DNA from: Candidatus Magasanikbacteria bacterium RIFOXYB2_FULL_38_10
Lineage (GTDB): Bacteria > Patescibacteriota > Patescibacteriia > Magasanikbacterales > UBA10003
Length of the DNA stretch: 47,449 nt
Assembly: GCA_001783145.1 (NCBI GenBank)
Contig: MFQT01000010.1
Span: 1 to 47,449 of the forward strand
Direction: 5' to 3'
Position numbers and translations under genes: made by a program. The notes beneath the pieces are model-generated. The model searched no databases, was not told where the DNA came from, and saw only the letters and a list, made by a program, of their open reading frames with translations. Numbering within the stretch: position 1 is the first letter of the stretch; every line of letters begins with the position of its first letter. Positions 7,733-43,802 of the stretch are shown piece after piece.

Positions 7733-7759
7733 AAATTAAGTGAGAGCGGCTAAAACTTC

Positions 7760-9196: not shown

Positions 9197-9223
9197 AAAA
9201 ATATCAAACAGTTAATAACGGAC

Positions 9224-10696
9224 TTATTTCTTTTTGGCAACGTAGAAACCTAAATACTTGCCAAACATCAGTCTGGTTTGAGCATCAATGGCAGGGACAG
9301 AACCAAAAATAATTAAGGTGACGGGCAAAAGAATCCACTGCAGAATCATTATTAAATATCCCCAGTGTTTACGCCTTGTCGGCGGGGGTAAAAGAAAGAG
9401 ACTGAAAATTGAAGAAAAAACAATACCGGCCATTGATAGATTCATTAAATTTTCTAAAGTGAAAGGTGTGTTTTGATAAATGGCCATACTGCGCACGGCT
9501 TCTGGAGCAAAATAAAGAGGCAGGCGACCACAAATGAAAATTAAAATTGGCACACTGGCCCAAGAATACATCCCCTCTCCCAAATTAAATAGATACTTAA
9601 TTTTTTTACCCCAAGAAATATGCCTGTGTTTTTTAAAATGCCAAACCATAAAAGGAAAATGCTCCACACCCCAAGCCCAGCGGCGCTGTTGTTTATAAAG
9701 ATTTTTTACACTGTCCCAAAAATTTTCTCCTTTAGCCGTGTACATGGAAACCGGTAAATACATAGGCACCACGCGGTAATCCCCACCATAACGTAAAAAG
9801 CATTGTAAAAAAATACGCGAATCTTCTGTGACGATATTTTTTTGCCAAAAACCCACATCAACCAAGGCCTGCCAAGACATACTATGTGAAGAAAAAGTAA
9901 AAAGCCGATCCGGCCTCTCTAATTCTGTCATAATCCAAAAAGTGGTACCAAAAGCAGTCACTCTAAGCAAGGGATTACTTTCCCAAATATTATTATTGTA
10001 TAGGGCCACCGGCTGATAAGAAGCTCTCAGGGGATTTTCCACCGTGGAATATAAATAAGAAAGATGGGCAAAATAATTTTTGTGAACTCTAGTGTCTATA
10101 TCAAAACTGGAAACAACAATATCTTCGTAAGGAATTTGCCATCCATCAATCATTTGTTGCACCAGATGACCGGCATAATTTAAATTAGATCCCTTGCCGG
10201 GAATTTCTCCGGGCATATCAACCGGATGAACAGTGACAATAAACTTTTTGAAAAAACTGCCATAAATTTTTTCCAACTCAAAGGCATTTTTTTCAAATTG
10301 TGCCTTATCCCTGGCTTCTCCGCACAAAACAATAATTATTTTGTTCAAAGGATAGTTAACCTGGGTTAAATTTTTTAAAGTTGCATCTATAATTTCAAAA
10401 GATTCTTCATAAGTGGGCAAGAAAACCAAATGAACTAATTTTTGCCAACCAGGAACTTCGTCCTCCAATTTTTTTTGCCAATCAATTTTTAAAGTTCGGC
10501 GCATTCTAAAGCCGGAGAGAAAAAGGTAAAAAATAAAATAACTAACTCTTAAAAACCAATACAAATCAAAAACGATAATAAAATAAATCAACCACAGAGG
10601 TTTAACAAAAGATAAAATAACGGACAAAATTAAGGTTGTCCAAACAAGAAACCCCGGGATAATTTCTAAGATTCTATATTTAAAATAATCTGACAT
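9224..10696 (-). CDS. integral-membrane processive GT2 glycosyltransferase (cellulose/chitin/PNAG-synthase-like)
   Basis: 490 aa; multiple TM helices at both ends; cytoplasmic GT-A core with D-x-D (FDIDTRV) and Q-x-x-R-W (QQRRWAWG) motifs. Confidence 0.8.
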   Translation of the reverse strand: MSDYFKYRILEIIPGFLVWTTLILSVILSFVKPLWLIYFIIVFDLYWFLRVSYFIFYLFLSGFRMRRTLKIDWQKKLEDEVPGWQKLVHLVFLPTYEESFEIIDATLKNLTQVNYPLNKIIIVLCGEARDKAQFEKNAFELEKIYGSFFKKFIVTVHPVDMPGEIPGKGSNLNYAGHLVQQMIDGWQIPYEDIVVSSFDIDTRVHKNYFAHLSYLYSTVENPLRASYQPVALYNNNIWESNPLLRVTAFGTTFWIMTELERPDRLFTFSSHSMSWQALVDVGFWQKNIVTEDSRIFLQCFLRYGGDYRVVPMYLPVSMYTAKGENFWDSVKNLYKQQRRWAWGVEHFPFMVWHFKKHRHISWGKKIKYLFNLGEGMYSWASVPILIFICGRLPLYFAPEAVRSMAIYQNTPFTLENLMNLSMAGIVFSSIFSLFLLPPPTRRKHWGYLIMILQWILLPVTLIIFGSVPAIDAQTRLMFGKYLGFYVAKKK

Positions 10697-10699
10697 AAA

Positions 10700-11107
10700 T
10701 TAATTTTTTTGACGCGGCAAGGTAATATTAGGCTCTCCGCCGTAAAGCGGCTTAATAAAAGATGCGGGGTGATTAAATTTTTTTTCTATTTCTAAAATTA
10801 ATTTTTCATTAGTGGAATTTTTTTTTATATCCAAACCGATAACCTTAATTTTTTTTGCCAAGACTAAAATGTTTAAAACAGCCACGGCCTGGCGTACTCC
10901 GGAAAAGCTCCCTTCTCCCTCCAACAAAACCAATCCTTTAATTTTATTCCAAGAGAGATTGTTTTCTTTTAGGAAACTATCCAAAAAAAATAAAAGGTTT
11001 AAGCGCCTTCCTTTTTTATTTTTTTCTTTTATTACTTTTTTATCCCGCAAAAGTTTAAGGGTCAGCACGCCCAACTTGGTGACATCAATTAAAACAATGG
11101 AAGGCAT
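10700..11107 (-). CDS. tsaB: TsaB/YeaZ-like protein (truncated Kae1-paralogue, t6A biosynthesis)
   Basis: 135 aa; IVLIDVTK...GEGSFSGVRQAVAVLNILVLAKKIKVIG matches the TsaB N-terminal domain. Confidence 0.65.
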   Translation of the reverse strand: MPSIVLIDVTKLGVLTLKLLRDKKVIKEKNKKGRRLNLLFFLDSFLKENNLSWNKIKGLVLLEGEGSFSGVRQAVAVLNILVLAKKIKVIGLDIKKNSTNEKLILEIEKKFNHPASFIKPLYGGEPNITLPRQKN

Positions 11108-11109
11108 AA

Positions 11110-11715
11110 TTAAAAAAGACTTTTGGGAACTTTAATTTTATCAATCAAAATCAAGTGTTTATCGCTTAGAACGTCGGACAAAAATTTATCGGCCACATCA
11201 CGGCGAAAAATAAATTCTTTTGTTTTCATCAAAGTGTAGCGTAATTCTTCTTCTGTTTCTTTTTCAAAATTTTTAATTGTCTTTTCCGCCTCTTTGGGTA
11301 AAATTGTGCCCACCAGCAAAATATCCACCGAGGATCCCTTATTTTCCACAAAATGGCCGCTTAAAAGCAAAAATTCTATTCCGCTTAAATTTTTTAAAGA
11401 GGAAATAAAATTTTGTTCTTTAGAAAACCTATCCTTAATTAAAAGATTTTCCAATTCCTTATTTAAGTGACCCCCGGTGTTTAATTTGTAATATTTTCTT
11501 TTTTCTGCCCCCGGAGACTTATCCAGGGAATCCTTTTTGTCGCTATCCATCACCACTTGCAAGGCGGATAAATTACCTAATTCGCGCCTGATGGCATTAA
11601 TAGGCAGGCCTAACTTCCGAGAAAGTTCCCTAACAAAAAAATCCTTGTCCGGATTAGCCAAAAAAAACTTTAAAACTTTAAGTCTGGTTTTTGAACCAAA
11701 AAGATGTTCAAGCAT
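11110..11715 (-). CDS. winged-HTH transcriptional regulator with a C-terminal nucleotidyltransferase-like domain
   Basis: 201 aa; N-terminal wHTH (FFVRELSRKLGLPINAIRRELGNL). Confidence 0.5.
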   Translation of the reverse strand: MLEHLFGSKTRLKVLKFFLANPDKDFFVRELSRKLGLPINAIRRELGNLSALQVVMDSDKKDSLDKSPGAEKRKYYKLNTGGHLNKELENLLIKDRFSKEQNFISSLKNLSGIEFLLLSGHFVENKGSSVDILLVGTILPKEAEKTIKNFEKETEEELRYTLMKTKEFIFRRDVADKFLSDVLSDKHLILIDKIKVPKSLF

Positions 11716-11824
11716 GTTTGGTTAAATTAAAAGCACTTTTCTTGTGCCTTGACTTTAAATTTAGTATAATACAAAAAGATTTAAACAGCAAGACAGCTTA
11801 TTTATTTTTCTAGATTGTCCCCAT

Positions 11825-14047
11825 ATGCTGGACAAGCCGGAATTGAATACTTTTTTAATTCAACCACCCGCCAGAGACAGATCACAGATAATCATTTTTT
11901 TAGGTCCGGCAATTCACGGCGGAGCCAATAAGGAAAGAATTTTCATTCTAGGAGAAATCTTGTCCTCAAATTTGGATTTAAAAAATAAAATCCAAATTTT
12001 TATTAATCAACTGGCTAAAAAATACCAAGAATTGGAAAGGGAATCTCCTTTAATTGCTTTTGAAAACACCCTGGAATGGGGCAATAATTTTTTGCGAGAA
12101 AATTTTGACAGTCAACAATTATCCACTATCAGTATTCTTTTTGGATCATTGCGCAATGAACAAATGCAATTTGCCGTAGGAGGAAGAATCGGCGCCCACA
12201 TTTTTTATAAAGAAAACGACGAATATAAAAACATTGATCTGATTAAAAATTATTCTGTGGAAAACGAGGGAAACGTTTTTTTTCCCAATCTTGTCTCCGG
12301 AACCATTCATCATAATAATTTTACTTTATTTGCCACCCCAACGACTTTTAATTATTTAACCACAGATCGTTTACAAAAAATAATTACTGGCAATAAATTA
12401 GAAGATATTTGTCCGCGTTTGGAAACTCTGCTTAATGAAATTGAAAATCACGCTGCTTTTGGAGGAATTTTATTGGCTTGGCCGGAAAACAATGAAACAA
12501 TAGAAAGACCGTCTGCTTTTAAACTAACCCCCAATGAATCTGTCCGCCAACTAATGACAAAACAAAAAGAAACAGCACAGATTATGTCTCCAGCTCTTTT
12601 CAATAGCATCAAAAAATATTTGCGTGAAAGAAAAAACAAAAATTCAGGGACAGCTAAAAAAGAAGACACAGAAACAATTAAAAAAATCACCAAAATTTAT
12701 ACCCGGTTAACTGGCTGGCAAGGAAAGTTAAGAAATTTAGTGCAAAAAATCTTAACAATTTTGGGCCAAACAATTTATAAATTTTACTTAGCTTTTAAAA
12801 AAACAATCATTTTTCTATTAAAAATAGAGTGGCGAACACCAAACAAAGCCAAGGAAACTTTGAATCTGGGAATAAAACAAACTGCGGCCCAAATTAAAAT
12901 TCCTTTTATTTATTTAGTTAAAAAGTATTTAGCCATCGAAATTAAAAAAAGAATTTTGTGGACTCTTTGCGTGATAGCTTTGATAGCTGTTATTATTAAC
13001 CTTTCTTTCAACTATCACCGCCAAAAAACAGTGCAGGAGACAGCCTCCTACATGCAAATAGTCACTTCTATAAAAGAAAAAATAGATGAAGCGGACTCTA
13101 ATCTTATCTATAAAAATGAAGATCGGGCGCAAGAATTATCCAAAGAGGCCAAAGAGCTACTGACACAGCTTCCTGCGGTAACAAATAACCAAAGAAAAAC
13201 TTATTCCGATCTTTCTAACGATCTTAAACAAATCATCTACAAAATGCAAAAAATTCAAACCGTTGTTCCACAAGATGAGCTGAATTTAAAAGCCCTTAAA
13301 ATGGAAAAAGGTCCCGAGGCTTTCTTTAAAACTTCCACTGGATTTATTTTTTTAGCGGTTAATTCCCCCACACTTTACATTTACAATTCCGCCACACAAA
13401 AAACCAAAAAAATAATCAATGATAAATTATCCGATTTAATTTATGCAGGCGTGCAAAAAGATAATTCCATTCTTTTAGTTTTGAAAAATAATGAAATCAT
13501 TCAATTTGACCCCGATAATGAAACTTTTTCCTCCAGCCAAATTGTTTTACCCAACCAAAGTAATCAAATATCTTTAGCCGCCACCTATAATGCCAAGCTC
13601 TACTCTTTAGACATTCAAAACAATCAAATTTTTAAGCATCTGCCTTCTACCACCGGTTTTGGCAAAGGGGAAGAATGGCTTAAAAAACAAACCAAAGTGG
13701 ATTTCACCGGCGCCACTTCGCTAATGATTGACGGTAATATTTATTTATCAAAAAATAACGGTCAAATATACAAATTAGAAAATGGGGTATTACAATCATT
13801 TGATTTAAATTTGCTGGATCCGGTTTTATCTACCGCCACAAAAATTTATACTAAAAACGGTTCAGATAATTTTTTTGTCTTGGATCAAGATAAAAAAAGA
13901 GTAATTATTTGGAATAAAATAACCAATAAATTATTTTCTCAATTAACGGCTGCCGAATGGGACGATCTTAAAGACTTTTCCGTTGATGAAAAACAAAAAA
14001 AAATTTACCTTTTAAACCACGATAAAATATACAGCGCTAAATATTAA
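11825..14047 (+). CDS. large hypothetical membrane protein (single central TM helix, cytoplasmic N-domain, extracytoplasmic C-domain)
   Basis: 740 aa, low GC, native codon usage; TM at LWTLCVIALIAVIINLSF; no confident family assignment. Confidence 0.6.
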   Translation: MLDKPELNTFLIQPPARDRSQIIIFLGPAIHGGANKERIFILGEILSSNLDLKNKIQIFINQLAKKYQELERESPLIAFENTLEWGNNFLRENFDSQQLSTISILFGSLRNEQMQFAVGGRIGAHIFYKENDEYKNIDLIKNYSVENEGNVFFPNLVSGTIHHNNFTLFATPTTFNYLTTDRLQKIITGNKLEDICPRLETLLNEIENHAAFGGILLAWPENNETIERPSAFKLTPNESVRQLMTKQKETAQIMSPALFNSIKKYLRERKNKNSGTAKKEDTETIKKITKIYTRLTGWQGKLRNLVQKILTILGQTIYKFYLAFKKTIIFLLKIEWRTPNKAKETLNLGIKQTAAQIKIPFIYLVKKYLAIEIKKRILWTLCVIALIAVIINLSFNYHRQKTVQETASYMQIVTSIKEKIDEADSNLIYKNEDRAQELSKEAKELLTQLPAVTNNQRKTYSDLSNDLKQIIYKMQKIQTVVPQDELNLKALKMEKGPEAFFKTSTGFIFLAVNSPTLYIYNSATQKTKKIINDKLSDLIYAGVQKDNSILLVLKNNEIIQFDPDNETFSSSQIVLPNQSNQISLAATYNAKLYSLDIQNNQIFKHLPSTTGFGKGEEWLKKQTKVDFTGATSLMIDGNIYLSKNNGQIYKLENGVLQSFDLNLLDPVLSTATKIYTKNGSDNFFVLDQDKKRVIIWNKITNKLFSQLTAAEWDDLKDFSVDEKQKKIYLLNHDKIYSAKY

Positions 14048-14500: not shown

Positions 14501-15043
14501 TTAAGCTGTTACTTTTTTATCTTTATAAGCGTTAAAAACTTGTACAAGTCCGCGTAAATTTCCGGCCAAGACATTTACAAAACCGGAGATTGGGGCTTGG
14601 ATAGAACCAACCAATTTGGCCAAAAGTTCTTCGCGAGAAGGCAAGGTGGACAAAACTTTTACTTCGTTGGCGGAAATAAAAGAATTCTGCCAAAGGCCTC
14701 CTAAAAGCGCCATTTTGTCATTGGTCTTAGAAAACTTGGTAATTATTTTTACCGCATCTAATTTATCACCAAAGTCAAAATTTAAACCAATAATGTGGCC
14801 CGGTAAAGTTTTAGCGTCATAATTGATACCGGCTTCTTTAAAAGCCAAATTCATTAAGGTTTTTTTAATAACAGCGCATTCAGAATTATTTTTGGATAAT
14901 TCACGTCTTAAATTGGTAATGTCCTTAACTTTTAAACCTTTGAAGTCAGTCAAAATAACCATCTTGGATTCTTTTAAAGCCTCCACTAAGGTTTTAATTA
15001 CCGACTCTTTTTGATTTCTACTCTTAGGCATAATTGTAAACAA
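14501..15043 (-). CDS. rplJ: 50S ribosomal protein L10
   Basis: 180 aa; L10 family; immediately upstream of rplL. Confidence 0.9.
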   Translation of the reverse strand: MFTIMPKSRNQKESVIKTLVEALKESKMVILTDFKGLKVKDITNLRRELSKNNSECAVIKKTLMNLAFKEAGINYDAKTLPGHIIGLNFDFGDKLDAVKIITKFSKTNDKMALLGGLWQNSFISANEVKVLSTLPSREELLAKLVGSIQAPISGFVNVLAGNLRGLVQVFNAYKDKKVTA

Positions 15044-15199
15044 AAAATCTGTGTTCTGCCACAGACTTGAAAACGGGTTTGCTTCGACCTATTTTGCCTT
15101 ATTTAAGACAAAATTAGCTCACCTCGGCAGGAAATTAAAGCCTTAAGGGCTACCTGCTATCTATGGTTAAAGATATTATAGATGAGAATATAAAAAATG
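15044..15199 (-). promoter_or_regulatory. putative L10(L12)4 autoregulatory leader of the rplJL operon
   Basis: 156-nt structured untranslated leader between pyrH and rplJ; hairpins tctgtg-ttctgc-cacaga and gcagg...cctgc; position matches the ribosomal L10 leader of other bacteria. Confidence 0.4.
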
Positions 15200-26242: not shown

Positions 26243-26857
26243 CTAGGCCGCGGCGGCCTTCTTCTTCGGGGCGGCCTTGGCCTTCTTCCCGGCCTTGGGC
26301 TTGGCCGGCGCCTTCTTGCCCTCGTCCGCGGGCTGGGTCGGGGCGGCGGGCTCCGGCTTGGGCGGCGGGGTGTAGCCCGTGGCCTCGTGGAACCAGCTCG
26401 GCGCCGCGTCGTTGACCAGCACGCCCTTCTCACCGGCCTGGATGCCGAGCGCCTTGACCGCGCGCACCAGCACCATCTTGACCTCGGCGGCCGTGGTCAG
26501 CACCTTGGAGTAACGCGGCTGGTCGTCCTGCCCCGGCTGCTTCCAGTCGTACTTGGCCGGGAAGCTGGACTTGAGGTCCACGCCCTTGGCCGGCTCCACC
26601 CGCACGCGCACCTGGTGCCCCAGGTCTCGCACTCCGATCCTGCCCTTGGGGGTCACCGCCAGCACCAGGTACTGCCCAGTGCTCTCGGTCCCGCCCATGA
26701 AGAACGGGTTGACCTTCTTGCCGTCCTTCTTGACCACCTTCAGTGGCCAGTCCGGGAAGCCGAGCGCCTTGAACGCCTTGCTCATGTCCATGGGGTTCTC
26801 CTTCGGCGCCTTCTTCTGGGGCGCCGCGCCGGTGGTGGGGGTCTCTCCGCACGCCAT
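26243..26857 (-). CDS. basic protein: unknown N-terminal domain plus histone-H1-like Lys/Ala/Pro-rich C-terminal tail
   Basis: 204 aa, about 68% GC; tail PPPKPEPAAPTQPADEGKKAPAKPKAGKKAKAAPKKKAAAA; GAGGAGG Shine-Dalgarno upstream; last gene of the 3-gene operon. Confidence 0.7.
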   Translation of the reverse strand: MACGETPTTGAAPQKKAPKENPMDMSKAFKALGFPDWPLKVVKKDGKKVNPFFMGGTESTGQYLVLAVTPKGRIGVRDLGHQVRVRVEPAKGVDLKSSFPAKYDWKQPGQDDQPRYSKVLTTAAEVKMVLVRAVKALGIQAGEKGVLVNDAAPSWFHEATGYTPPPKPEPAAPTQPADEGKKAPAKPKAGKKAKAAPKKKAAAA

Positions 26858-26874
26858 TGTTGCCTCCTCGGAGC

Positions 26875-27717
26875 CTACTTTAGCTCCTTATCAGTTGGGA
26901 AACTTTCCTTTACACCCGTACCCGAACCGAATGCTCCAAACGTCCCCTGGCTTCCACCAGGCAAACGTGCTTGATCCAAATAACCATAGCGCGATGATCC
27001 CGGAGGATTAAAGCTGTCGTCTGCCAAATCCTCCAAGTAGTAAACGCCACTCTTTCCCCCGGTTCCGTAGTTGGTGATGCCAAGGGAGTAATCCCTCAAA
27101 GAAGGATCGTTCGAGTAGCTCTCGGGAAGATCTTCTCCCCGCAGAGCGAAAATCGCTTCCGCTTGCTCCAGCGTTTCCACCGACTTGTGGCAATGACGCT
27201 TACGAGCGGCAGAGATTGGATCCGGAGTCTGCTCCCTGTTCTCCAACAAAGCGATGAGAGACGCTAGGAACGTCCCTGTTCGCCCGTGAGAGCCGATGCA
27301 GTACACCATCACCTTTTTACCAGCCTGCAACAACGGAATGACTTTGTCAAGCAAGAACTCTTCAAAGCCATCCGGTGGTGGACTAAAGTCAGGCCAAGGG
27401 CAACCCAAGACCTGAACTGTCTGCCCCAGTTCCAAACGGATCGCCCGAGTATCATCCAGGGGTATCAAGACATCAAACCCGTCAAAATCCCCTTCTTTCA
27501 GATACCGTGTCCCGCCCGGATAGATCTGGTAAGGGCCAACCTGCACCGCCTTCTTACCGCGGTGTGCAGGGTGGCTATCTTTTTTAATCTTCAATTTTTT
27601 GGCAGAACCACCGCTTGCTGGGACAAAGCCCTTCTCGGTCCAATCCCAGGCTTGGTCAGAACCCTTACGGCCATGTCCAGTTGGCAGGCCGCCCTTTCCT
27701 CCTTGCTCTATCATCAT
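26875..27717 (-). CDS. dual-specificity / protein-tyrosine phosphatase (CX5R P-loop) with G/S/Y-rich low-complexity C-terminal tail
   Basis: 280 aa; catalytic VYCIGSHGRTGTF with upstream WPDFSPP...; tail YSLGITNYGTGGKSGVYYLEDL...GGSQGTFGAFGSGTG. Confidence 0.8.
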   Translation of the reverse strand: MMIEQGGKGGLPTGHGRKGSDQAWDWTEKGFVPASGGSAKKLKIKKDSHPAHRGKKAVQVGPYQIYPGGTRYLKEGDFDGFDVLIPLDDTRAIRLELGQTVQVLGCPWPDFSPPPDGFEEFLLDKVIPLLQAGKKVMVYCIGSHGRTGTFLASLIALLENREQTPDPISAARKRHCHKSVETLEQAEAIFALRGEDLPESYSNDPSLRDYSLGITNYGTGGKSGVYYLEDLADDSFNPPGSSRYGYLDQARLPGGSQGTFGAFGSGTGVKESFPTDKELK

Positions 27718-27738
27718 CCCCTCCTTTCGGCAGCCTGC

Positions 27739-30087
27739 CTAAGCTGCTTTTTGTAAAATCTTAGTCTTCCAAAGGCCAAGATTTTTACCCCTTTCAAACA
27801 ACTCCTGAACTTCTTTACTAAATTCCCACCGAGCCAAACCTTCGTAGAGAGAAGCAATGCTCGTAGCGTTCTTCTTAATCTCCAACTGCTCTTGAACCTC
27901 GTATCTGTCTCCGGACAACATCTCGTGCTTGTCAAAGACATTGCCCGTGTTGTGCTGAAGATCAAAAACGTGATCGGCAAAAGCAGAGTGATTCAGCTTG
28001 CCACTGAGGAACAAAAGGCCGGCCGTAGCAATAACAGCCCACTTGGGACCGCCAAAGCTATAGCCGCGCCATTTTCCCTTTTCAAAGGCTTCGGCGTTAA
28101 GGCGGAAGAATTCAATTGCCTCGGCCAAGTCCATCTTCTTTAAGGCCTCTTTCAGAATCTTCTGGGTATTCTCTCTGTTACTGGGACTAGTGCCCCAGTA
28201 GTCGTTCGGAAGATGATACTTAGCCCTAAGGATAAAGTAGGCCGGTGAGGCAGCTGTCACTTTGCTTTCATCGGCGAATTCATCATCCTTTTTTTGCGGA
28301 GAATAATGCCGCGATTCGGCACCAACGGCCATGGCCAGGTAGGCCACAAAACGCTCGGCCGTTTCAATATGGATCCGCCGACGCAAGCTGGCAACGGCAG
28401 ATTCCAACGCTGTTCCCTTGGACGCTTGGGTCATGGCGTCCACCAGGTAAAAGTCATTGAGAGTGGTATTGACGGAGACACGGCTCTCAATGTACGCGGG
28501 ATCAAGGCGGGGCTTTGGCCAATACAAGTTGCTCTTTTCCATCCAGCGCAAGAAGATGTTGGTTTCCTTCTTGGGCACTGGATTAGCCATTTCCACCACG
28601 CCATTCATAACCATTCCGGTTGCTCCGTCTACCGAAATGATCTGTCCTTGCTTCACCAAAAGATCTTGGACGCCGACCACCGCCGGCTTGCCAAAGCTTC
28701 TGGCTACGACAGCCGCGTGCGATGTTGCTCCGCCAACCTTAGTTACCACGGCGGCAGAAATGAGCAGTCCGGGAAGATCCGCTGGTGATGTCTCGTCGCG
28801 CACCAGGATCACCTTGACTCCGTTGTTTGCCAACTCAATGGCTTCAGCAGAACTCAAGGCAACTGTGCCCACGACCGCACCAGGCGAAGCCGGCAGACCC
28901 TTGGCTAAAAGTTTGGCTTGCGCCGCCCTCGCCAAGGCCTCTGGCTTGAACACCTGACGGCTCACCGCCTCTATCTGCTCTGCAGTAACCCGCCGCAAAG
29001 CTTCATCCTTGGTCAACAGCCTCTCCCAAACCATGTGAGTGGCAATAATGACCGCAGCTTCGGGGGTGCGCTTAGCTGCCCGATACTGCAGGATGTAAAG
29101 ACGGCCGTTTTCCACGGTGAACTCCACGTCCACCGCGTCTTTCAAATGGGCCTCCAGCTTCCGCACAATCTGCTGGAGTTCGATGAAGAGGTGGGAGTTC
29201 CACTCCTTCATCTTAGCAATTGGCAACGGGGTGCGGATCCCGGCCACCACGTCCTCACCCTGGGCATTAACCAAGAACTCGCCGTAAAGCTCAGGGTTGC
29301 CAGTGGAGACATCGCGGCTAAAAACGACCCCTGTGCCAGAGTCGTTGCCACGGTTGCCAAAAACCATGGCCTGCACATTGACCGCCGTTCCCCACCATTC
29401 GGGAATCTCGTGCGCCTGGCGGTAAGCCTTGGCGCGCTCGCTATCCCAAGAGAGAAACACGGCCGTGATCGCCATCTGTAGCTGCTGCCAAACATCGTCC
29501 GGCACCGAACGCTTAGTCGCACTGGAGATAAGCTCGCGATAATTCTCGCAAAGCTCTTCCAGCGACTTAATGGTCAGCTTGCTGTCCTCAGTTATGCCTT
29601 GCTTGCGCTTGGCCTTGGTGAGGATTTTCTCAAAGCGCTGACGATCAATACCCAGGACCACGTCACCGAAAAGGCTTAGAAACCTCCGGTAAGTATCCAA
29701 GGCGAAACGCTTTGAGCCGGTATCCTTGGCCAGACCCTTAACGGTCTTAGGATTCAGACCAAGATTGAGCACCGTGTCCATCATACCGGGCATGGACTTG
29801 GCCGCGCCCGAACGCACGGACACGAGAAGCGGAGAGGAGTTGCCCCCAAACCGCTTCCCGGTCCGTGCTTCCAGCGCCTTTACACCTCTTTGAAGCTGCC
29901 CGGCGAACCGGGCAGGAAAACCACCGTGCTCGCCAAAAGCGCGGGCAACAGTCGTCGTCACCGTGAACCCGGGCGGAACCGGCACGCCAAGGCGCACCAT
30001 TTCCGCAAGACCCGCTCCCTTACCGCCCAAAACCTGGGCAGTACGGGCTACCTCTCCAAAGAGGTAGACCACTTGTCCGTTCCTCAT
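27739..30087 (-). CDS. PPDK-derived phospho-histidine phosphotransferase: PPDK_N ATP-grasp plus PEP-utilizer swivel His domain plus a novel ~260-aa C-terminal domain replacing the pyruvate/PEP TIM barrel
   Basis: 782 aa; residues 1-520 align closely to pyruvate phosphate dikinase (LGGKGAGLAEM, LLVSVRSGAAKSMPGMMDTVLNLGLN, WGTAVNVQAMVFGN, NAQGEDVVAGIRTP, GGATSHAAVVARSFG). The C-terminal third lacks every PEP-utilizers_C motif and is about 48% GC against about 61% for the PPDK part. Confidence 0.85.
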   Translation of the reverse strand: MRNGQVVYLFGEVARTAQVLGGKGAGLAEMVRLGVPVPPGFTVTTTVARAFGEHGGFPARFAGQLQRGVKALEARTGKRFGGNSSPLLVSVRSGAAKSMPGMMDTVLNLGLNPKTVKGLAKDTGSKRFALDTYRRFLSLFGDVVLGIDRQRFEKILTKAKRKQGITEDSKLTIKSLEELCENYRELISSATKRSVPDDVWQQLQMAITAVFLSWDSERAKAYRQAHEIPEWWGTAVNVQAMVFGNRGNDSGTGVVFSRDVSTGNPELYGEFLVNAQGEDVVAGIRTPLPIAKMKEWNSHLFIELQQIVRKLEAHLKDAVDVEFTVENGRLYILQYRAAKRTPEAAVIIATHMVWERLLTKDEALRRVTAEQIEAVSRQVFKPEALARAAQAKLLAKGLPASPGAVVGTVALSSAEAIELANNGVKVILVRDETSPADLPGLLISAAVVTKVGGATSHAAVVARSFGKPAVVGVQDLLVKQGQIISVDGATGMVMNGVVEMANPVPKKETNIFLRWMEKSNLYWPKPRLDPAYIESRVSVNTTLNDFYLVDAMTQASKGTALESAVASLRRRIHIETAERFVAYLAMAVGAESRHYSPQKKDDEFADESKVTAASPAYFILRAKYHLPNDYWGTSPSNRENTQKILKEALKKMDLAEAIEFFRLNAEAFEKGKWRGYSFGGPKWAVIATAGLLFLSGKLNHSAFADHVFDLQHNTGNVFDKHEMLSGDRYEVQEQLEIKKNATSIASLYEGLARWEFSKEVQELFERGKNLGLWKTKILQKAA

Positions 30088-33004: not shown

Positions 33005-35044
33005 TTAGAATCCTAATTTTTTAATTTTAATTTCTTCGCGATACAATTCTAATTTATCCCCTGCTTCTATTTTTTCTTTGGTTTCAATTTGCAAGCCGCA
33101 TTCTTGTCCGGTCATAATATCTTTAACTTTTTGTTTGCCGGCCTGCAATTCCGTCACCTCTCCATTACCAATAATTTCTCCCTGACGAAAAATGCGTACT
33201 TTCACATTATTTTCCGCTTGGCCATCAATCACGCGTCCGCCTACAATTTGGTATTTTTTTTCGGTTCTAAAAATCGCCAAAATTTCCATTTTACCAATTT
33301 CGTGCACTATTACTTCCGGCGGCAATAATTTTTCCAATTCTTTTTTAACATCACCTAACAAATCGTAAATAATTTTATAATGTTTAATAGTAACCTTTTT
33401 TTGTTTAGCTAATAATTCAGCCGCCGGAATAATGGGAACATGAAACCCTAAAATATGAGCGCTGGAAGCCTCGGCACGTAAAACCTCTGCCTCGGTAATA
33501 GAACCCAATCCCTTGGCCACCACCTCTACTTCTACTTCTGGATGAACCATTCTTTGCAAGGCTCCCAAAATAGCTTCCAAAGATCCCAAAACATCCACCC
33601 GCAAAATAATGGCGTACTTCTTTTTTTCTAGGCCTTCTTCACCGCCAATACCGGCGCTGGTTGTAGCAGTGATGATATTTTTTTCTTGCACCAAATAAGT
33701 GGGTTTAATTTTTTTCTCCAAACCTTTAATATCTTTGGGAACCTCTAGAACGTCCCCCACAGCCGGAGCAATTTTAAAACCCAAAATTTGTACCGGAGTA
33801 GAAGGCGGAGCAGTTTTGACCATTTCACCTTTCCAATCCTTTAGGGCCTTAATACGTCCATACCAAGCAAAATTGATTGCCAATTCATCGCCTACTTTTA
33901 AAGTACCGCTTTGCACCAAAAGTGTAGCCACTGGGCCAGCCTTGGGATCTATATGGGATTCCACAATTGTTCCAACGGCGAGCCGTTTAGGATTAGCGGT
34001 AATTTTGGATTTATCTAAATCCGCCACCAATAAAACCATTTCCAATAATTTATCTATATGCAAATTAGCCTTAGCTGAAACAGGAACCATTACAACCTTA
34101 CCACCCCATTCTTCTGGTTGCACGCCCAATTCTGATAGTTGAGTTTTAACTCTGTCCAAATCTGCCTCGGGCTTATCAATTTTGTTTAAAGCCACGATGA
34201 AAGGCAACTTAGCCGCTTCAATAATTTTAATGGCTTCTTTGGTTTGCGGTTGCACACCATCATCGGCGGCCACTACCAAAATGGCTACGTCAGCCACTTT
34301 AGCGCCGCGGCTGCGCATAACAGTAAAAGCTTCGTGTCCCGGGGTATCAATAAAAGTCATTTGTCTTAAAACTTTTTCTCCAGCCTCGGTAGTAAAAGGC
34401 ACTTTTACTTGATAAGCGCCAATGTGCTGAGTAATTCCGCCAGCCTCACCGGCTACTACATTGGTACTTCTGATAGCATCCAAAAGTTTGGTTTTGCCAT
34501 GATCAACATGACCCATCACCACCACTACTGGCGGACGTGGTTCCAGATCCTCTTCTTTTTCACTTTCTAAAATATTCTTTAAACGATCTAACGATTCTCC
34601 ATTTTCTATCGTCTCTTCTTTTTTTTCTTCTGGCGTCACTTCAAAACCAAAATCCTGCGCGATAATATTGGCAGTATCATAATCAATGCGTTCATTCATG
34701 GAAGCCAAAATACCATTTTTAATTAGTTCGCGAATAACATTGGTGACGGGCAAATTCAACTTAACGGCAAAATCACGCACGGTGATAGCTTGAGGTAATT
34801 GGATTGTTTTCTTTTCCGCCTCCGCCCCTTCGGTAGCCACTTCCGCGGTTTTAGCTTGGTCTTTAATAAACTGATTTTCTTGAATTTTTCTCCTAATCTT
34901 GGGCCAGGCGGCAACAATTTGACTGGCTACACGATTATCAACTTTAATGGCGCGACGGCCAATGTCAAAACCGAATTGCGGCAAAGTATCATACAATTCT
35001 TGAGGGGAAGTTTTAAGTTGTCTGGCTAGTTCCGAAACATTCAT
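33005..35044 (-). CDS. infB: translation initiation factor IF-2
   Basis: 679 aa; G-domain [20 protein letters not shown]; IF-2 C-terminal domains. Confidence 0.95.
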
Positions 35045-35202
35045 AACTTATAATTAGTATCTTAAATATACTCTTATTTTAACAAAGGGTCAAATTGCAG
35101 ACAGATAACCGACCATAGAGACCGCCTGCAGGCTTTTGACTTTTTTAAAGAAAAAAGCTAATATTTAATTCAAGACTACTAAAATTAATATTATTTAAAT
35201 AT

Positions 35203-36781
35203 ATGGCAGAAACAGCCAAAGCACCCTTACCACCCGCCGAAGTTTCAGAAAAAAGATTTCCCGAGTTGAAAGAATTAAAAAATCCGGAAACATTGAGACC
35301 AGTGGAGCTGATAGAAAAAGAAGTGGATTCACTTTACGTCCCCACTTGGATGCGCACCGGCAAAAAATTAGAACAGCAACTTTACTGGCCGATTGGAGCT
35401 TTAAATATAGAAAAATCCATATCTCCGGAAAATCTCCCCAAAAACTTGGTTGAACTTTTTAAAAACCCCAACGTGGCCAGGGCTTTTTTGCTTAGCCAAA
35501 ATTTATTAAAAACTCCTAATTTTCAAGGCGGCCTTGTTTACATTTGGCCCACTCGGCTTTGTCCCTTAGGTTGTTCTCATTGTATGTTCGGCGCTCCTAA
35601 ATCAACAGAAAGATTGCGTGGTGCCTTAGGGAATAGATTAACTTCCGAACAAGCCGACAAAGCTATACAATTTACCAACGACATGAAAGCGGACGTGGTA
35701 GCCTTAAGCGGTGGCGGTGAACCCTTGGAAGAACGCGACACCACTTTTAAAGTAATCAGGGAAACCCACGCCACCAACATTCATCTAATCACCAACAGTT
35801 TCTGGGCCGGAGAACAAAAAGGAGCTGCGGAATTTTTTGATGAACTGGAAAAAAATTTTCAAGATCGTGAAGCGTCCAAATTACCCAAAGCTAAATTTGT
35901 TTTAAAACTCAGTTTGGATGAGGCTCACCTGCATCATTTGCCCATGGCTAATATGCATCACATCCTTACTGAATTTTTAGCCAGAAATTTTGCTTTTGAT
36001 TTTGAATTAAGCCAGAAATTTTGCTTTTGATTTTGAATTAAGAATGAAATCCATCTTTAAAGAAGACAAGGCGGTGGCCCAATTTGTTAAAGAGTTGCAG
36101 GAAATGCATCACGGCGCCAAAATAGAAGAAATTAATCCTTACAAAGTGCGTATTTTGTTGGCTCCTGGCAAAGAAATTTTCATCACTTTTAAAAATAGCG
36201 TACCTAGCGGAAGAGGCAAGGTGGCGCAAACAGATGGAATTACAGCTAATTACAACCAAGGCTATGTTGATTTTATTACTTCACAGTTGCCACATAAAAA
36301 AATCAACCCTACCAACCAAGCTTTGGGCGGCGATAATGTGGAATATCCTAATGGCGCAAATTACACTATTGAATATGACGGCTCCACAAAATTATTAGAA
36401 GGCTCTCCTTTAGATAATGTGCCTAACATTGATGATTTTAATTTTGTTGATGCCCAGGCTATGATTTTTAAAGACCCTATTTCTTATTTATCCAGATTGG
36501 AAGGACCGGAAGCTATTTATGCCATTGCCGCAGAAATAGATGCCCAAAAATTGGCGGATTTAAGATACCAAAATGCTTTGTATTATAACTTGGAAAGATT
36601 ATTAGATACACCGAATAAAAGAGTTTATGCCACCATCAGAGCCTTTCAAGTCTTAAAATCAACTCATCCGGAAATTTTTAAGGAAGAAATTGATGATCCC
36701 CAAAAGAAATTTTGGTTAGAAGCAGAAGTACCTACTTTAAAAGAATTACTGGGCTTGGACAAAACAGAAAGCGGGAGCTAA
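35203..36781 (+). pseudogene. radical-SAM protein gene split into two ORFs (35203..36030 and 36044..36781) by a 31-bp perfect tandem duplication that shifts the frame
   Basis: CX3CX2C cluster CPLGCSHC plus SGGGEPL in ORF1. Removing one repeat copy joins ...FAFDFEL to RMKSIFKEDK... in frame (~520 aa). Confidence 0.7.
35980..36041 (+). repeat. perfect 31-bp direct tandem duplication (gccagaaattttgcttttgattttgaattaa x2)
   Basis: Copy 1 at 35980..36010, copy 2 at 36011..36041, identical. Confidence 0.95.
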
Positions 36782-36866: not shown

Positions 36867-36895
36867 TTGACAAAAAGGCTAAAAAGTGATATAAT
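36867..36895 (+). promoter_or_regulatory. perfect sigma-70 consensus promoter TTGACA-N17-TATAAT upstream of sufS
   Basis: ttgaca at 36867..36872, 17-nt spacer, tataat at 36890..36895; AAGGAGGG Shine-Dalgarno 7 nt before ATG 36987. Confidence 0.7.
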
Positions 36896-36986
36896 AAGCA
36901 GTTGCCAGAATGAGTTTTCTGGTGATTGCATTTAATTTGGCGATCTTTAACAGGGCCATAATGGCCACCACAAGGAGGGCGACGAG

Positions 36987-38237
36987 ATGACGAAGCTCCT
37001 CAACATCAAGGGCGATTTCCCAATCCTGAGAGAACCCAGGGGAGACGAAGGTGTTTTCCTGACCTACCTGGACAGCGGGGCATCGTCGCAGAAGCCCGAG
37101 GCGGTGATCAAGGCGGAGGAGCAGTTCTACTGCGCCTCCAACGCCAACATCCACCGCGGTGCCTACCGGCTGGCCCGCAAGGCCACGGAGATGTACGAGG
37201 CCGCGAGGGTCACGGTGGCCGCGTTCATCGGGGCCGGCGATCCCCGGTCCCTCGTCTTCACCAGCGGCACCACCATGGGCACGAACATCGTGGCCCACGC
37301 CTGGGCCGAGGGCAACCTCCAGGACGGCGACATCGTGCTCTTCACGGAGATGGAGCACCACGCCAACATCGTCCCTTGGCACCTGCTGGGCAAGCGCCGC
37401 GACATCAAGACCGCGGCCGTCAAGGTGGACGACCGCGGGGTGCTGGACATGGAGGATCTGAAGGCCAAGCTCACGGCCGGCGAGGGACAGGTGAAGCTGG
37501 TGGCCGTGACCCACGTCTCCAACGTGACCGGGGTGAAGAACCCCGTCAAGGAGATCACGTCTCTCGCGCATCAGTTCGGCGTGGCCGTGCTGGTGGACGG
37601 GGCGCAGTCCGCCCCCCATCTGCCCGTGGACGTGGAGGACATCGGGTGCGACTTCTTCGTCTTCTCCGGCCACAAGATGCTGGGGCCGACCGGCATCGGC
37701 GGCCTCTACGTGCGTCCCAGCCGCTGGAGCGAGATCTCCCCCTTCTTTGGGGGCGGTGACATGATCACGGACGTCACCCTGGAGAACTCGGCCTTCAAAC
37801 CCATGCCCAGCCTGCTGGAAGCCGGTACGCCCAACATCGCCGGAGCGGTGACGCTCGCGGCGGCCTGCGACTACCTCAAGAGCATCGGCATGGAGCGGGT
37901 TGAGGAGCACGTCAGGACCGTGGGCACCTACGCCTGGAACAAGCTCAAGGCCATTCCGGGCGTAAAGGTCTACGGACCCGGCCCGGGAGAGCACAGAACC
38001 GGTTCACTCGTCTCCTTCACCGTGGACGGCGTCAAGAACGACGAGATCATGGCGGAGCTGGACGAGTACGGGGTGGCGGTGCGCGTAGGCCGGTTCTGCG
38101 CCTGGCCCATCTTCAAGCGCCTGGGCTTGGGCAACAACGGGGCGGTGCGAGCCTCGTTCCACATCTACAACAACTACCAAGACGTTGATCTGCTGGCCTC
38201 GGTCATCCGGGGACTCGCCGAGCAGGCGCACCAGTAA
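36987..38237 (+). CDS. sufS: SufS/CsdA-type cysteine desulfurase (class V aminotransferase, PLP-dependent)
   Basis: 416 aa, about 65% GC; PLP-lysine motif SGHKMLGPTGIG; catalytic Cys loop RVGRFCAWP; whole-length similarity to group II cysteine desulfurases. Confidence 0.9.
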   Translation: MTKLLNIKGDFPILREPRGDEGVFLTYLDSGASSQKPEAVIKAEEQFYCASNANIHRGAYRLARKATEMYEAARVTVAAFIGAGDPRSLVFTSGTTMGTNIVAHAWAEGNLQDGDIVLFTEMEHHANIVPWHLLGKRRDIKTAAVKVDDRGVLDMEDLKAKLTAGEGQVKLVAVTHVSNVTGVKNPVKEITSLAHQFGVAVLVDGAQSAPHLPVDVEDIGCDFFVFSGHKMLGPTGIGGLYVRPSRWSEISPFFGGGDMITDVTLENSAFKPMPSLLEAGTPNIAGAVTLAAACDYLKSIGMERVEEHVRTVGTYAWNKLKAIPGVKVYGPGPGEHRTGSLVSFTVDGVKNDEIMAELDEYGVAVRVGRFCAWPIFKRLGLGNNGAVRASFHIYNNYQDVDLLASVIRGLAEQAHQ

Positions 38238-41759: not shown

Positions 41760-43802
41760 TTAATTTTTGCCGAACGCACCAGCCACAGCTTTGGAAAGGT
41801 TGCTGTGCCCCAGAATTGCCGCTGCGGACGAAAAATCCGAGCCACCCCCCTCCACAAGTACTTCGGGCTGTTTGACCATCTCCGGATGGTCCTTTAGCAC
41901 CGTCAAGAGCTCACGGAAAAGAGCCAACTCAAGAGTCTTATCCTGACCAAGAACGGCCACCTGAGCACGCTGGCCTTGTGCCTCGGCTTCCAGTCGCGCC
42001 TTGGCGCCCAAACCAAGCTGTTCATCAGCCTGCTTCTTGATCTGAGCAGCGATCAGCGTCTCCTGCTGATCAGCTTCCGCCTTCTCCTTCTCAGCCTGGA
42101 TACGCGCAGTCTGTGCGATCTTCTCCTGCTGGAAGGTTTCGTTCATCTGCTGAGCAAGCTGCATGCGCTTGCCGGGGATGAGCAGTTCGGGAGGAACGTA
42201 GGGATCACCAAAACGGACATCCCTTGCGATGAGACCGGTCTTGAGAGCTTCCGGCTTGACTCCTCCTTCAACCAGAGCCTCCATCTTCTGCCGCTCATAG
42301 ATCACTTGCAAAACCTTCACGTCGCGGTTGCCCAGGATATTCCTCGACACCGAACGGTAGAGCGGAGTGATTATGCGATCTTCCACCTGCTTCAAATCCC
42401 CGACATACGCCACCACAAAGGGAGCGTTCTCGGGCGTAACCTGAACCAGGATTCGGGAATCGAGCCAGACATCCCATCCTTCAACCTTGTGATTGATGGC
42501 TCCATCGGCCGCTCCCTCCGGAATGTCAACCTTCTCTTCCGACACGGTCTGCACGATGGATCCATCCTTGTCCACCGTGAGGTTGAACGTCCTGCGGATG
42601 TAGCCACCCTCGTACCGCCAAGTTTGTACCCTGGTGTCGATCTTGGTAACCGTGTACGCAAAGGGATTCAAGTAATACTTGCCGGGCAAAAGTACACTTT
42701 CCCAGACACCAATATCGCCCTGCGGAACCAAGGGATTGGACAGATTGGTGAGCGCCATGATGCGCGCTTCTTCCTCGGAAACAGCCTTCAGTCCGTCCAG
42801 TTCGGCCTTGATCTTGTCCTTGCTCACAGGTCCTTCAAGCGACAAGAAGGTCGGAATGGCAACCGGCGCCTTATCATCAAGTTCGGCCTTGGCCGGTTGC
42901 TCGGTGGGGGCAATGGCGGTCTTGGAGAGAACCAGCTTGGACTTCCCGGCTTCCTCTTCTTCCCGCTTGTTAATCTCTTCCAACATTTGATTCAGTCTGA
43001 TTCGCCTCTGACCGATCTCAAGTCTAGACGCTTCAATATATGAAGCGACAATAGACTTGGGAACAATGGGGTCGCCAATGTACTTCTGTCCCACGTTGGA
43101 CTTGACCACGCCAACGAAACCAGCATCAATCTCGGTCTCGTCCACGGGATCTCCAACATCAAACAGGTACCTGTTGACACGGTAAGTACCGGGCTTGAGG
43201 ACAGTCAACTGAAGACCCTTGTATCCTCGCGGAAGGCCGTTTTCAGTATCAATACCCATGAAGTACTGGGCATCCAGGTACTGTTCAAACTCCTTCTCCG
43301 GCCAGCCATCAGCCATATACTGACCATCGGGCAGGGCACGACCATCCTTGGCCGTCAGAACCCTCAACTTGCCAGCTGCCACTTCCACCGTGTTCAGCTC
43401 TTCAATGTCGTTCAACACCTTGAGGAAGAAGCTGAACTGGAATCCGGGAGGCAGGATCTCGGCGCGAGGCCCCTTTTGCCAACCAGTCGCAATGACGCGG
43501 CCGGTAGGCATGTCCGTACCATAGATCCTCTTCAAATGCCCCACCTTGTCCGTATCAATGTAGGTGAAGCTGGTCATGAAAACTAAGAAGCCGGCCAAAA
43601 CAAAAGCCGTAATGGAAATGGCTCGCGTAAGCAAGGAGGACGGCTCTGCGGGAGGGAGATCCTTCTCCACCTCTCCACGCCTGCGCCTGGTCTTGTTGGC
43701 CTCTTCTACAGATGCACGATACTCTTGGTGGATGTTTCTCAGCAATCTGGGAGCGAAAGCCCCCACCAGCACTGCGAGAACTGCCAGAATGAGCAAGGAC
43801 AT
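41760..43802 (-). CDS. SPFH/flotillin-like (YqiK-type) membrane protein
   Basis: 680 aa, about 57% GC; two N-terminal TM segments; C-terminal flotillin-type Ala/Glu/Gln-rich coiled coil (TARIQAEKEKAEADQQETLIAAQIKKQADEQLGLGAKARLEAEAQGQRAQ). Confidence 0.65.
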   Translation of the reverse strand: MSLLILAVLAVLVGAFAPRLLRNIHQEYRASVEEANKTRRRRGEVEKDLPPAEPSSLLTRAISITAFVLAGFLVFMTSFTYIDTDKVGHLKRIYGTDMPTGRVIATGWQKGPRAEILPPGFQFSFFLKVLNDIEELNTVEVAAGKLRVLTAKDGRALPDGQYMADGWPEKEFEQYLDAQYFMGIDTENGLPRGYKGLQLTVLKPGTYRVNRYLFDVGDPVDETEIDAGFVGVVKSNVGQKYIGDPIVPKSIVASYIEASRLEIGQRRIRLNQMLEEINKREEEEAGKSKLVLSKTAIAPTEQPAKAELDDKAPVAIPTFLSLEGPVSKDKIKAELDGLKAVSEEEARIMALTNLSNPLVPQGDIGVWESVLLPGKYYLNPFAYTVTKIDTRVQTWRYEGGYIRRTFNLTVDKDGSIVQTVSEEKVDIPEGAADGAINHKVEGWDVWLDSRILVQVTPENAPFVVAYVGDLKQVEDRIITPLYRSVSRNILGNRDVKVLQVIYERQKMEALVEGGVKPEALKTGLIARDVRFGDPYVPPELLIPGKRMQLAQQMNETFQQEKIAQTARIQAEKEKAEADQQETLIAAQIKKQADEQLGLGAKARLEAEAQGQRAQVAVLGQDKTLELALFRELLTVLKDHPEMVKQPEVLVEGGGSDFSSAAAILGHSNLSKAVAGAFGKN

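What the first reader, a model, noticed from the sequence alone, without database searches (positions are those of the whole stretch)
35203..36781. Radical-SAM gene broken by a perfect 31-bp tandem duplication
The 31-bp unit gccagaaattttgcttttgattttgaattaa occurs twice back-to-back (35980..36010 and 36011..36041). Because 31 is not divisible by 3, the second copy shifts the frame and introduces a stop (…SQKFCF*). Deleting one copy fuses the radical-SAM N-terminal ORF (CPLGCSHC, SGGGEPL) in frame to the downstream ORF (…FAFDFEL-RMKSIFKEDK…). This is either a very recent inactivating slippage or duplication event, a phase-variable switch, or an assembly artefact. The radical-SAM protein itself has an unusual ~110-aa extension before the Cys cluster and an unassigned C-terminal domain.
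Basis: seen in the sequence. Interest (0 to 1): 0.55.

Follow-up and report, generated by a model that had tools for sequence, protein, structure and literature searches.

The report
Recent 31-bp duplication splits a radical-SAM gene
A perfect 31-base tandem duplication has recently broken a conserved but uncharacterised radical-SAM enzyme gene in an uncultivated groundwater bacterium; it is a real mutation, because both the broken and the intact version occur in public metagenomes on otherwise identical DNA, but it is an ordinary kind of mutation.

Summary
A perfect 31-bp tandem duplication (35980-36010 and 36011-36041) frameshifts one gene into ORFs of 275 and 245 aa. Removing one copy gives a 515-aa protein that already exists, 100% identical, in public metagenomes.

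Two contigs carry the one-copy allele and are exact substrings of the window minus one copy. Fourteen contigs and three NCBI Candidatus Magasanikbacteria MAGs carry the two-copy allele. The MEGAHIT k141 assembler produced both alleles, so an assembly artefact is excluded.

All four orthologues (487-515 aa) and about 200 distant relatives are single polypeptides that run straight through the junction. dN/dS against a sister strain is 0.055 in both halves, so the gene was under constraint until very recently.

The break lies in strand β5 of the radical-SAM barrel and separates the Fe-S/SAM motifs from conserved downstream residues. The best reading is a recent tandem duplication by replication slippage at a 2-bp microhomology, inactivating and segregating in the population. 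Whether it acts as a reversible switch is untested.

The enzyme belongs to an uncharacterised radical-SAM family. Its nearest fold is EpeE/YydG, but it has no auxiliary-cluster cysteines and no SPASM domain. Its neighbour in every lineage is a very GC-rich sufS gene.

The parts
35203..36030 (+). N-terminal fragment ORF (275 aa): residues 1-269 of the ancestral radical-SAM enzyme plus 6 out-of-frame residues (SQKFCF) and a TGA stop
   Evidence: The sequence is deposited as KKR48756.1, KKS56988.1 and OGH85715.1.
35560..35583 (+). CX3CX2C radical-SAM [4Fe-4S] cluster motif (CPLGCSHC; C120, C124, C127)
   Evidence: These cysteines are invariant in 22 of 22 family members.
35707..35724 (+). SGGGEP (GGE) SAM-binding motif
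   Evidence: G170-G172 are invariant in alignment A3.
35980..36010 (+). Copy 1 of the 31-bp unit. It encodes ARNFAFDFEL in the ancestral frame, at the start of barrel strand β5.
36011..36041 (+). Copy 2 of the 31-bp unit, the derived insertion. It shifts the frame by +1. It is absent from L001, L002, L011 and all orthologues.
36025..36030 (+). TTT TGA at the end of the N-terminal ORF. A +1 slip here would enter the frame of the C-terminal ORF, giving a 525-aa product with a 10-aa insertion. This is speculative.
   Evidence: Sequence inspection and the translation.
36044..36781 (+). C-terminal fragment ORF (245 aa): residues 271-515 of the ancestral enzyme, carrying the conserved D278, G374, G383, D394, D414 and P415
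   Evidence: The sequence is deposited as KKR48757.1, KKS56989.1 and OGH85716.1.
36867..36895 (+). Consensus sigma-70-like promoter (TTGACA-17-TG-TATAAT, 12 of 12) in front of sufS, so the frameshift need not be polar on sufS
36987..38237 (+). SufS-family cysteine desulfurase (416 aa), the conserved neighbour of the radical-SAM gene, with GC 65% and GC3 0.91

Best explanation
The 31-bp repeat is a real and very recent tandem duplication. It arose inside a single 515-aa radical-SAM gene of a Candidatus Magasanikbacteria (CPR) population. The likely cause is replication slippage between two short, imperfect direct repeats 31 bp apart in the ancestral sequence: AGCCAGAAAT and AGAATGAAAT, with exact microhomology AG at the junction. 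Because 31 = 3x10+1, the reading frame shifts and stops six codons later. The break falls in strand β5 of the radical-SAM barrel. The 275-aa product keeps the Fe-S cluster and SAM motifs but loses the rest of the barrel and the conserved C-terminal domain, so the enzyme is most probably inactive. The mutant allele is the common one in the sampled aquifer population, and the intact ancestral (or reverted) allele persists in at least one sample. What is shown: the duplication itself, its derived state, that it is real, its recency, its position in the predicted fold, and past purifying selection. What is inferred: the slippage mechanism, the loss of activity, and the ability to revert.
For: The perfect duplication is unique in the window and far beyond chance. 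The repaired protein equals P0001 at 100% identity. L001 (JGI 3300025152) and L002 (ENA ERZ27254852) are exact substrings of the window minus one copy, with no other difference over 4347 and 2552 bp. The two-copy allele lies on 14 contigs, and L006-L010 are exact substrings of the window, coming from JGI, ENA and Banfield-lab assemblies; three NCBI MAG records also carry it. Orthologues P0002, P0003, P0004 and P0008 (487-515 aa) align through ...F.F.ELRMKSIF... without a gap, and their DNA has one copy. About 204 distant relatives match across query residues ~85-475 as one stretch. A short relative I checked (P0147) is cut by a contig end and is not a natural split. dN/dS against L011 is 0.055 overall, 0.059 for the N half and 0.051 for the C half. 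The AlphaFold2 model (pLDDT 86.4, pTM 0.89) is one globular unit with the junction in strand 266-273. Foldseek matches EpeE across the whole chain. Invariant or nearly invariant residues lie on both sides of the break. Microhomology-mediated tandem duplications that frameshift genes and revert precisely are documented (bioRxiv 10.1101/2020.03.03.972455; pneumococcal capsule genes, Waite 2001 and 2003 as cited in PMC4022640).
Against: The exact microhomology is only 2 bp, which is short for the classical mechanism. No reads were available, so allele frequencies within samples are unknown. The two intact-allele contigs are short and may come from the same underlying sample, assembled by two pipelines. 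The mutant allele is dominant across many samples, which is unexpected for a deleterious loss in a gene with dN/dS 0.055. This suggests a hitch-hiking sweep, a benefit of loss, or retained function through split halves or frameshifting. Loss of activity has not been tested.
Confidence: 0.8

Rival explanations
1. The duplication is one state of a reversible ON/OFF switch. It turns the radical-SAM enzyme off, precise loss of one copy by slippage or recombination between the 31-bp repeats turns it back on, and selection shifts the ratio between samples.
For: Both alleles occur on otherwise identical DNA, with no linked SNP in 4.3 kb. Alleles differ between assemblies whose accession numbers lie in one narrow ENA range (ERZ27254745 two-copy, ERZ27254852 one-copy). 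Perfect tandem duplications are known to revert much faster than they form and to act as switches. The OFF allele is common even though the gene has a history of strong constraint.
Against: Only copy numbers 1 and 2 were seen. There is no pre-existing multi-copy repeat tract and no such repeat in any orthologue. The microhomology is only 2 bp, so re-formation after reversion would be rare. There is no evidence that both alleles coexist in one sample. The intact allele may simply be the ancestral remnant.
Confidence: 0.15
2. The gene still yields a working enzyme. Either the 275-aa and 245-aa products, which together hold every ancestral residue except R270, reassemble, or a +1 ribosomal slip at UUU_UGA (36025-36030) produces a full-length protein with a 10-aa loop insertion (SQKFCFDFEL) before β5.
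For: The second ORF starts at an ATG 13 nt after the stop of the first, in an AT-rich context similar to that of the gene's own start, which also lacks a Shine-Dalgarno sequence. The +1 product is open to the end, and its second DFEL restores the β5 sequence. The broken allele persists at high frequency.
Against: The break is inside a core β-strand of a single globular fold. No member of the family was found naturally split. No frameshift-stimulating element was identified. The T-rich sequence explains the UUU_UGA by chance.
Confidence: 0.08
3. The duplication is an assembly or sequencing artefact.
For: Short tandem repeats can be mis-resolved in de Bruijn graphs at small k. The window is a metagenome-assembled sequence.
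Against: The two-copy form was recovered in 14 contigs from several samples, years and assemblers, and in three NCBI MAGs. MEGAHIT k141 contigs exist for both alleles, and a 141-mer spans the whole 62-bp tract with its flanks, so each allele must be present in reads.
Confidence: 0.02

Closest known systems
[quoted passage not shown] S. pombe ssp1 MTDs (Dan et al., bioRxiv 10.1101/2020.03.03.972455) and pneumococcal capsule-gene duplications (Waite et al. 2001, 2003)
   Same: This is a short (tens of bp) perfect head-to-tail duplication inside an ORF. The unit length is not a multiple of 3, so it causes a frameshift and premature stop. The wild-type single-copy allele coexists with it, and precise loss of one copy would restore the gene.
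   Different: The exact microhomology is only 2 bp (7 of 10 imperfect), against 5-8 bp in the ssp1 cases. Reversion and phenotype have not been observed. The organism is an uncultivated CPR bacterium and the evidence comes only from metagenome assemblies.
EpeE/YydG radical-SAM peptide epimerase (PDB 8ai1-8ai6; TIGR04078)
   Same: It is the best sequence match (32 bits, residues 120-299) and the best structural match (Foldseek E 3e-9, TM 0.61-0.69 on the target). It shares the CX3CX2C and GGE motifs and the barrel-plus-C-terminal-domain architecture.
   Different: The score is far below the family cut-off (32 against 300 bits) and identity is 13-14%. The protein has no auxiliary-cluster cysteines and no equivalent of the catalytic Cys, because it has only three cysteines in total. 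It carries an extra N-terminal domain of about 105 aa. No YydF-like precursor gene was seen, and the conserved neighbour is sufS instead.
Classical simple-sequence-repeat phase variation (contingency loci)
   Same: Repeat copy number changes inside an ORF and toggles the reading frame.
   Different: Contingency loci have many copies of 1-8-bp units that are conserved as a tract. Here there are two copies of a 31-bp unit, with no tract in any relative.

Membership tests
Radical SAM superfamily (PF04055) | CX3CX2C motif binding the [4Fe-4S] cluster | tested here: met
   CPLGCSHC at residues 120-127. The cysteines are invariant in 22 of 22 aligned relatives.
Radical SAM superfamily (PF04055) | GGE (SAM-binding) motif and partial (β/α)6 barrel fold | tested here: met
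   SGGGEP at residues 169-174. The AlphaFold2 model has pLDDT 86.4 and alternating β/α elements. Foldseek matches EpeE, anSME, MoaA and SkfB at probability 1.0.
Radical SAM superfamily (PF04055) | Pfam score at or above the gathering threshold (29.5 bits) | tested here: not met
   The score is 25.6 bits, E 1.6e-5. Relatives P0009, P0010, P0021 and P0030 pass with 32-41 bits, so this is a divergent member rather than a non-member.
YydG/EpeE peptide epimerase (TIGR04078) | Equivalog score of at least 300 bits | tested here: not met
   The score is 32.3 bits.
YydG/EpeE peptide epimerase (TIGR04078) | Second [4Fe-4S] cluster cysteines and a catalytic H-donor cysteine in the C-terminal part | tested here: not met
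   There are only three cysteines in the whole protein, and no conserved extra cysteine in the family alignment.
SPASM/twitch radical-SAM enzymes | Cys-rich C-terminal auxiliary-cluster domain | tested here: not met
   There is no SPASM or Fer4 hit in the C-terminal half and no cysteines after residue 127.
Microhomology-mediated tandem duplication allele | Perfect head-to-tail duplication whose ends share a short identical sequence in the single-copy allele | tested here: met
   Period-31 identity runs over 35979-36042, that is two units plus AG. The single-copy allele has AGCCAGAAAT and AGAATGAAAT 31 bp apart, with exact AG and GAAAT. The exact microhomology at the junction is only 2 bp.
Microhomology-mediated tandem duplication allele | Single-copy allele is ancestral and is present in the population | tested here: met
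Phase-variable (reversible) locus | Both states interconvert within one clonal population at high frequency | not testable with these tools
   This needs read-level or culture data. The tools show only that samples differ in copy number.
Phase-variable (reversible) locus | Repeat tract conserved in relatives, or more than two copy-number states | tested here: not met
   L003, L011, L012 and L015 have no repeat, and only 1 or 2 copies were seen in 11 loci.

The most novel reading that the evidence does not exclude
The 31-bp duplication is one state of a naturally segregating, rapidly reversible tandem-duplication switch in an uncultivated CPR bacterium. It would toggle a clade-specific radical-SAM enzyme that works with its conserved, compositionally anomalous SufS partner, for example in a sulfur-dependent modification. 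The OFF state would be favoured in most aquifer samples.
Probability: 0.1. Interest if true: 0.6.

Novelty: new member of a known kind. Interest (0 to 1): 0.3.

Why it matters
The practical value is for annotation. Three GenBank MAG records list two 'hypothetical proteins' that are halves of one radical-SAM enzyme, and the intact 515-aa sequence is the one to use for family and structure work. The case also shows that public metagenome assemblies alone can distinguish a real segregating frameshift from an assembly artefact and date it as recent. If read data showed both alleles interconverting, this would be a rare natural example of a tandem-duplication switch in a CPR bacterium. The enzyme family itself (Cys-free C-terminal domain, about 200 relatives mostly in actinomycetes, obligately next to a GC-rich sufS in Magasanikbacteria) has no known function and is a reasonable target for characterisation.

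Tried and rejected
1. An exact 38-bp DNA scan of metagenome contigs for the left junction, meant to count alleles per sample, found nothing, so that collection evidently lacks these contigs.
2. Related-locus searches in genome contigs and metagenome contigs returned only orthologue loci already known.
3. A profile search of the 5.8-billion-protein index with the 22-sequence alignment returned only the same four proteins.
4. Hairpin-driven duplication is rejected: ssDNA folding of the tract is no better than shuffles, with z scores of +0.6 and +1.1.
5. A natural split at this position in relatives is rejected. Close orthologues are unsplit, and the short representative I checked (P0147) is truncated by a contig end.
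6. A SPASM or twitch domain is rejected because there are no cysteines beyond the rSAM cluster.
7. A single 'linked SNP' in the BLAST output was an overlap artefact at the repeat, because the contigs are exact substrings.
8. The GC-rich block at 26-31 kb is not an rRNA operon: Rfam finds none there, and the ORFs I scanned there gave protein-family hits such as a PPDK-like enzyme.
9. The gene contexts of distant relatives (P0009, P0173) lack sufS, so they give no functional lead for the Magasanikbacteria pair.

Full report
**Observation**

GCCAGAAATTTTGCTTTTGATTTTGAATTAA occupies 35980-36010 and again 36011-36041, and the two copies are identical. TRF reports 35979-36042, period 31, 2.1 copies, 100% matches.

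It is the only perfect tandem repeat with a unit above 12 bp in the 47 kb window. The chance expectation is about 3e-14, and 20 shuffles gave units of at most 9 bp.

The tract divides ORF 35203-36030 (275 aa, ending ...FDFELSQKFCF*) from ORF 36044-36781 (245 aa, starting MKSIFKEDK).

**Is it real, and which state is ancestral?**

The repaired protein is 100% identical over its full length to a protein already in the public collection (P0001). Its contigs are L001 (JGI 3300025152, 4347 bp) and L002 (ENA ERZ27254852, MEGAHIT k141, 2552 bp). Both are exact substrings of the window once one copy is deleted, so there is no other difference. The single 'mismatch' in the BLAST output was an overlap artefact at the repeat.

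The split version is found on 14 contigs. Five of these were read (L006-L010, from JGI, ENA/MEGAHIT and the ANAN16 assembly), and all are exact substrings of the window. The two halves are also deposited as separate hypothetical proteins in three GenBank MAGs of Candidatus Magasanikbacteria: KKR48756/7, KKS56988/9 and OGH85715/6.

The MEGAHIT k141 assembler produced both alleles in different samples. From how de Bruijn assemblers work, a 141-mer covers the whole 62-bp tract plus its flanks, so each allele must be present in reads. This step is an inference. An assembly artefact is therefore excluded.

- The four orthologues (P0008 92% identity, P0002 58%, P0003 52%, P0004 52%; 487-515 aa) are single ORFs. 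They align without a gap through a well-conserved block...F.F.ELRMKSIF....
- Their DNA has one copy of the unit.
- An exhaustive HMMER search found 204 more distant relatives. Most of those listed match across query residues about 85-475 in one stretch.
- Some short representatives end near the junction. The one I checked (P0147) is truncated by a contig end.

One copy is therefore the ancestral state.

**How recent is it?**

No other substitution separates the two alleles over 4.3 kb. Against the sister lineage L011 (about 89% DNA identity), dN/dS is 0.055 for the repaired gene: 0.059 for the part upstream of the break and 0.051 downstream. Both halves were under equally strong purifying selection, and neither shows decay.

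**Mechanism of formation (inferred)**

In the single-copy allele the unit is bracketed by AGCCAGAAAT and AGAATGAAAT, 31 bp apart. These match at 7 of 10 positions, with AG and GAAAT exact, and the period-31 identity extends exactly 2 bp (AG) beyond two units. This is the signature of slipped-strand or microhomology-mediated tandem duplication, although the microhomology is very short. Single-strand folding gives no hairpin better than shuffles.

Such duplications are documented to frameshift genes and to revert precisely at high rates:
- S. pombe ssp1 (bioRxiv 10.1101/2020.03.03.972455).
- Pneumococcal capsule genes (Waite et al. 2001 and 2003, as cited in PMC4022640).

**Consequence for the protein**

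The AlphaFold2 model built from 22 family members is confident (pLDDT 86.4, pTM 0.89) and forms one globular unit. The junction (L269/R270) lies in strand 266-273, which is β5 of the radical-SAM barrel by my count of the elements.

The cluster motif (C120, C124, C127) and the SGGGEP motif are upstream of the break. Downstream lie the invariant D278, the nearly invariant G374, G383, D394, D414 and P415, and the whole C-terminal domain. The 275-aa product is therefore very probably inactive on its own; this is an inference.

Two ways the gene could still yield activity cannot be excluded:
- The two ORFs together retain every residue except R270, and the second ATG lies 13 nt after the first stop.
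- A +1 slip at TTT_TGA (36025-36030) would give a full-length protein with a 10-aa insertion, SQKFCFDFEL.

The gene downstream, sufS, has its own perfect sigma-70-type promoter at 36867-36895, so polarity on sufS is unlikely.

**What the gene is**

Pfam Radical_SAM scores 25.6 bits, just below the 29.5-bit gathering threshold, while relatives pass it. The best NCBIfam and PDB matches are YydG/EpeE, the radical-SAM peptide epimerase. That match is only 32 bits against a cut-off of 300, and it spans residues 120-299, so it crosses the junction. Foldseek puts EpeE first (E 3e-9, target TM 0.61-0.69), followed by anSME, MoaA and SkfB.

The protein has only three cysteines, and the family alignment shows no further conserved cysteine. 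It therefore has no auxiliary cluster and no SPASM or twitch domain, and it is not a YydG-family member.

The first 80-105 residues form a confidently folded extension. Most distant relatives begin to match only around query residues 81-110, so this extension appears specific to the Magasanikbacteria clade. The wider family (about 430 aa) is annotated only as 'radical SAM protein' or 'hypothetical', largely in actinomycetes such as Amycolatopsis, Streptomyces, Kutzneria, Kitasatospora and Micromonospora. The function is unknown.

**Context**

In all four Magasanikbacteria lineages for which flanks exist, the gene lies next to a SufS-family cysteine desulfurase (window 36987-38237; TIGR01979 476 bits). 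The arrangement differs between lineages: sufS is downstream on the same strand in the window and L015, upstream on the same strand in L012, and divergent in L003.

Conserved adjacency despite rearrangement suggests a functional link, either sulfur or Fe-S supply to the radical-SAM enzyme or a joint sulfur-transfer reaction. That link is an inference. Distant actinomycete relatives lack the sufS neighbour.

**Switch or plain mutation?**

Both alleles exist on identical flanks and differ between samples. The mutant allele is much more frequently assembled (14 contigs against 2), even though the gene has a history of constraint. A perfect 31-bp duplication should be lost far more easily than it forms.

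This fits either of two readings: (a) a recent loss-of-function allele that swept or hitch-hiked, with ancestral remnants remaining, or (b) a reversible switch. Without reads, I favour (a).
- Only two copy-number states were seen.
- No repeat tract exists in relatives.
- The microhomology is minimal, so re-formation after reversion would be rare.

**Verdict**

This is a real, recent, population-polymorphic frameshift by tandem duplication in an uncharacterised radical-SAM gene, which is a known kind of event. Interest is modest. The side observations (the GC3 0.91 sufS partner and the orphan radical-SAM family) are arguably more intriguing than the duplication itself.

Noticed in passing
window 36987-38237 (+); L003 8533-9768 (-); L012 169-1482 (+); L015 4764-5177 (+): The sufS gene next to the radical-SAM gene has GC 65% and GC3 0.906, in a genome whose neighbouring genes have GC3 of about 0.35. 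Its orthologues beside the radical-SAM orthologues are also GC-rich (GC3 0.60-0.70) in hosts of about 40% GC. SufS pairwise identity (53-57%) matches that of the radical-SAM orthologues, so the pair looks co-inherited yet sufS has not ameliorated. This is unexplained.
   Followed up: partly
window 36879-37994 (-) versus 36987-38237 (+); L007 and L008 gene tables: In some public annotations (JGI 3300025309, ENA ERZ27254745) the GC-rich sufS is not called. Spurious 371-aa and 75-aa ORFs on the opposite strand are called instead, while the ANAN16 assembly calls the 416-aa sufS. This looks like a gene-caller artefact of the GC jump.
   Followed up: no
window ~37147-37375: Four independent short contigs (L001, L002, L009, L011) all end inside the GC-rich sufS. 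This suggests coverage loss or graph branching at the composition jump.
   Followed up: no
window 35816-35820; L025 1-1155: ENA contig ERZ27254812 k141_192020 is identical to window 34708-35861 except for an extra A in the A5 run. This gives a different frameshift of the same gene (P0007, 212 aa). The indel is 46 bp from the end of a 1.1-kb contig, so it may be a read error, or it may be a second independent inactivating allele.
   Followed up: partly
window 26243-30087 (-) and 41760-43802 (-): There are further GC-rich coding islands (GC 0.49-0.60 per kb; GC3 about 0.63-0.64 for the two genes measured) in the roughly 40% GC window. They hold an unknown 204-aa ORF, a DSP-phosphatase-like protein, a PPDK_N/PEP-utilizer protein of 782 aa, and a 680-aa Band_7/SPFH protein. 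There is no rRNA here. They may be horizontally acquired genes.
   Followed up: partly
window 36867-36929 (+): A perfect consensus promoter (TTGACA-17-TGnTATAAT) is followed directly by a hairpin with a 13-pair stem (36898-36929) in the sufS leader. This may be a regulatory element.
   Followed up: no
L024 (Amycolatopsis xylanica FNON01000013.1) 6001-13302; L022: In an actinomycete, a distant family member sits in an operon-like run with an adenylate-kinase-like gene, an NTP_transf_5 gene and two ABC exporter genes, with PP-binding carrier proteins upstream. One relative (P0223) is fused to an adenylate-kinase domain. This hints at a natural-product or peptide-modification role for the wider family.
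   Followed up: no
window 15033-15184 (-): A ribosomal protein L10 leader (RF00557, 51.4 bits) is the only Rfam hit in the window.
   Followed up: no
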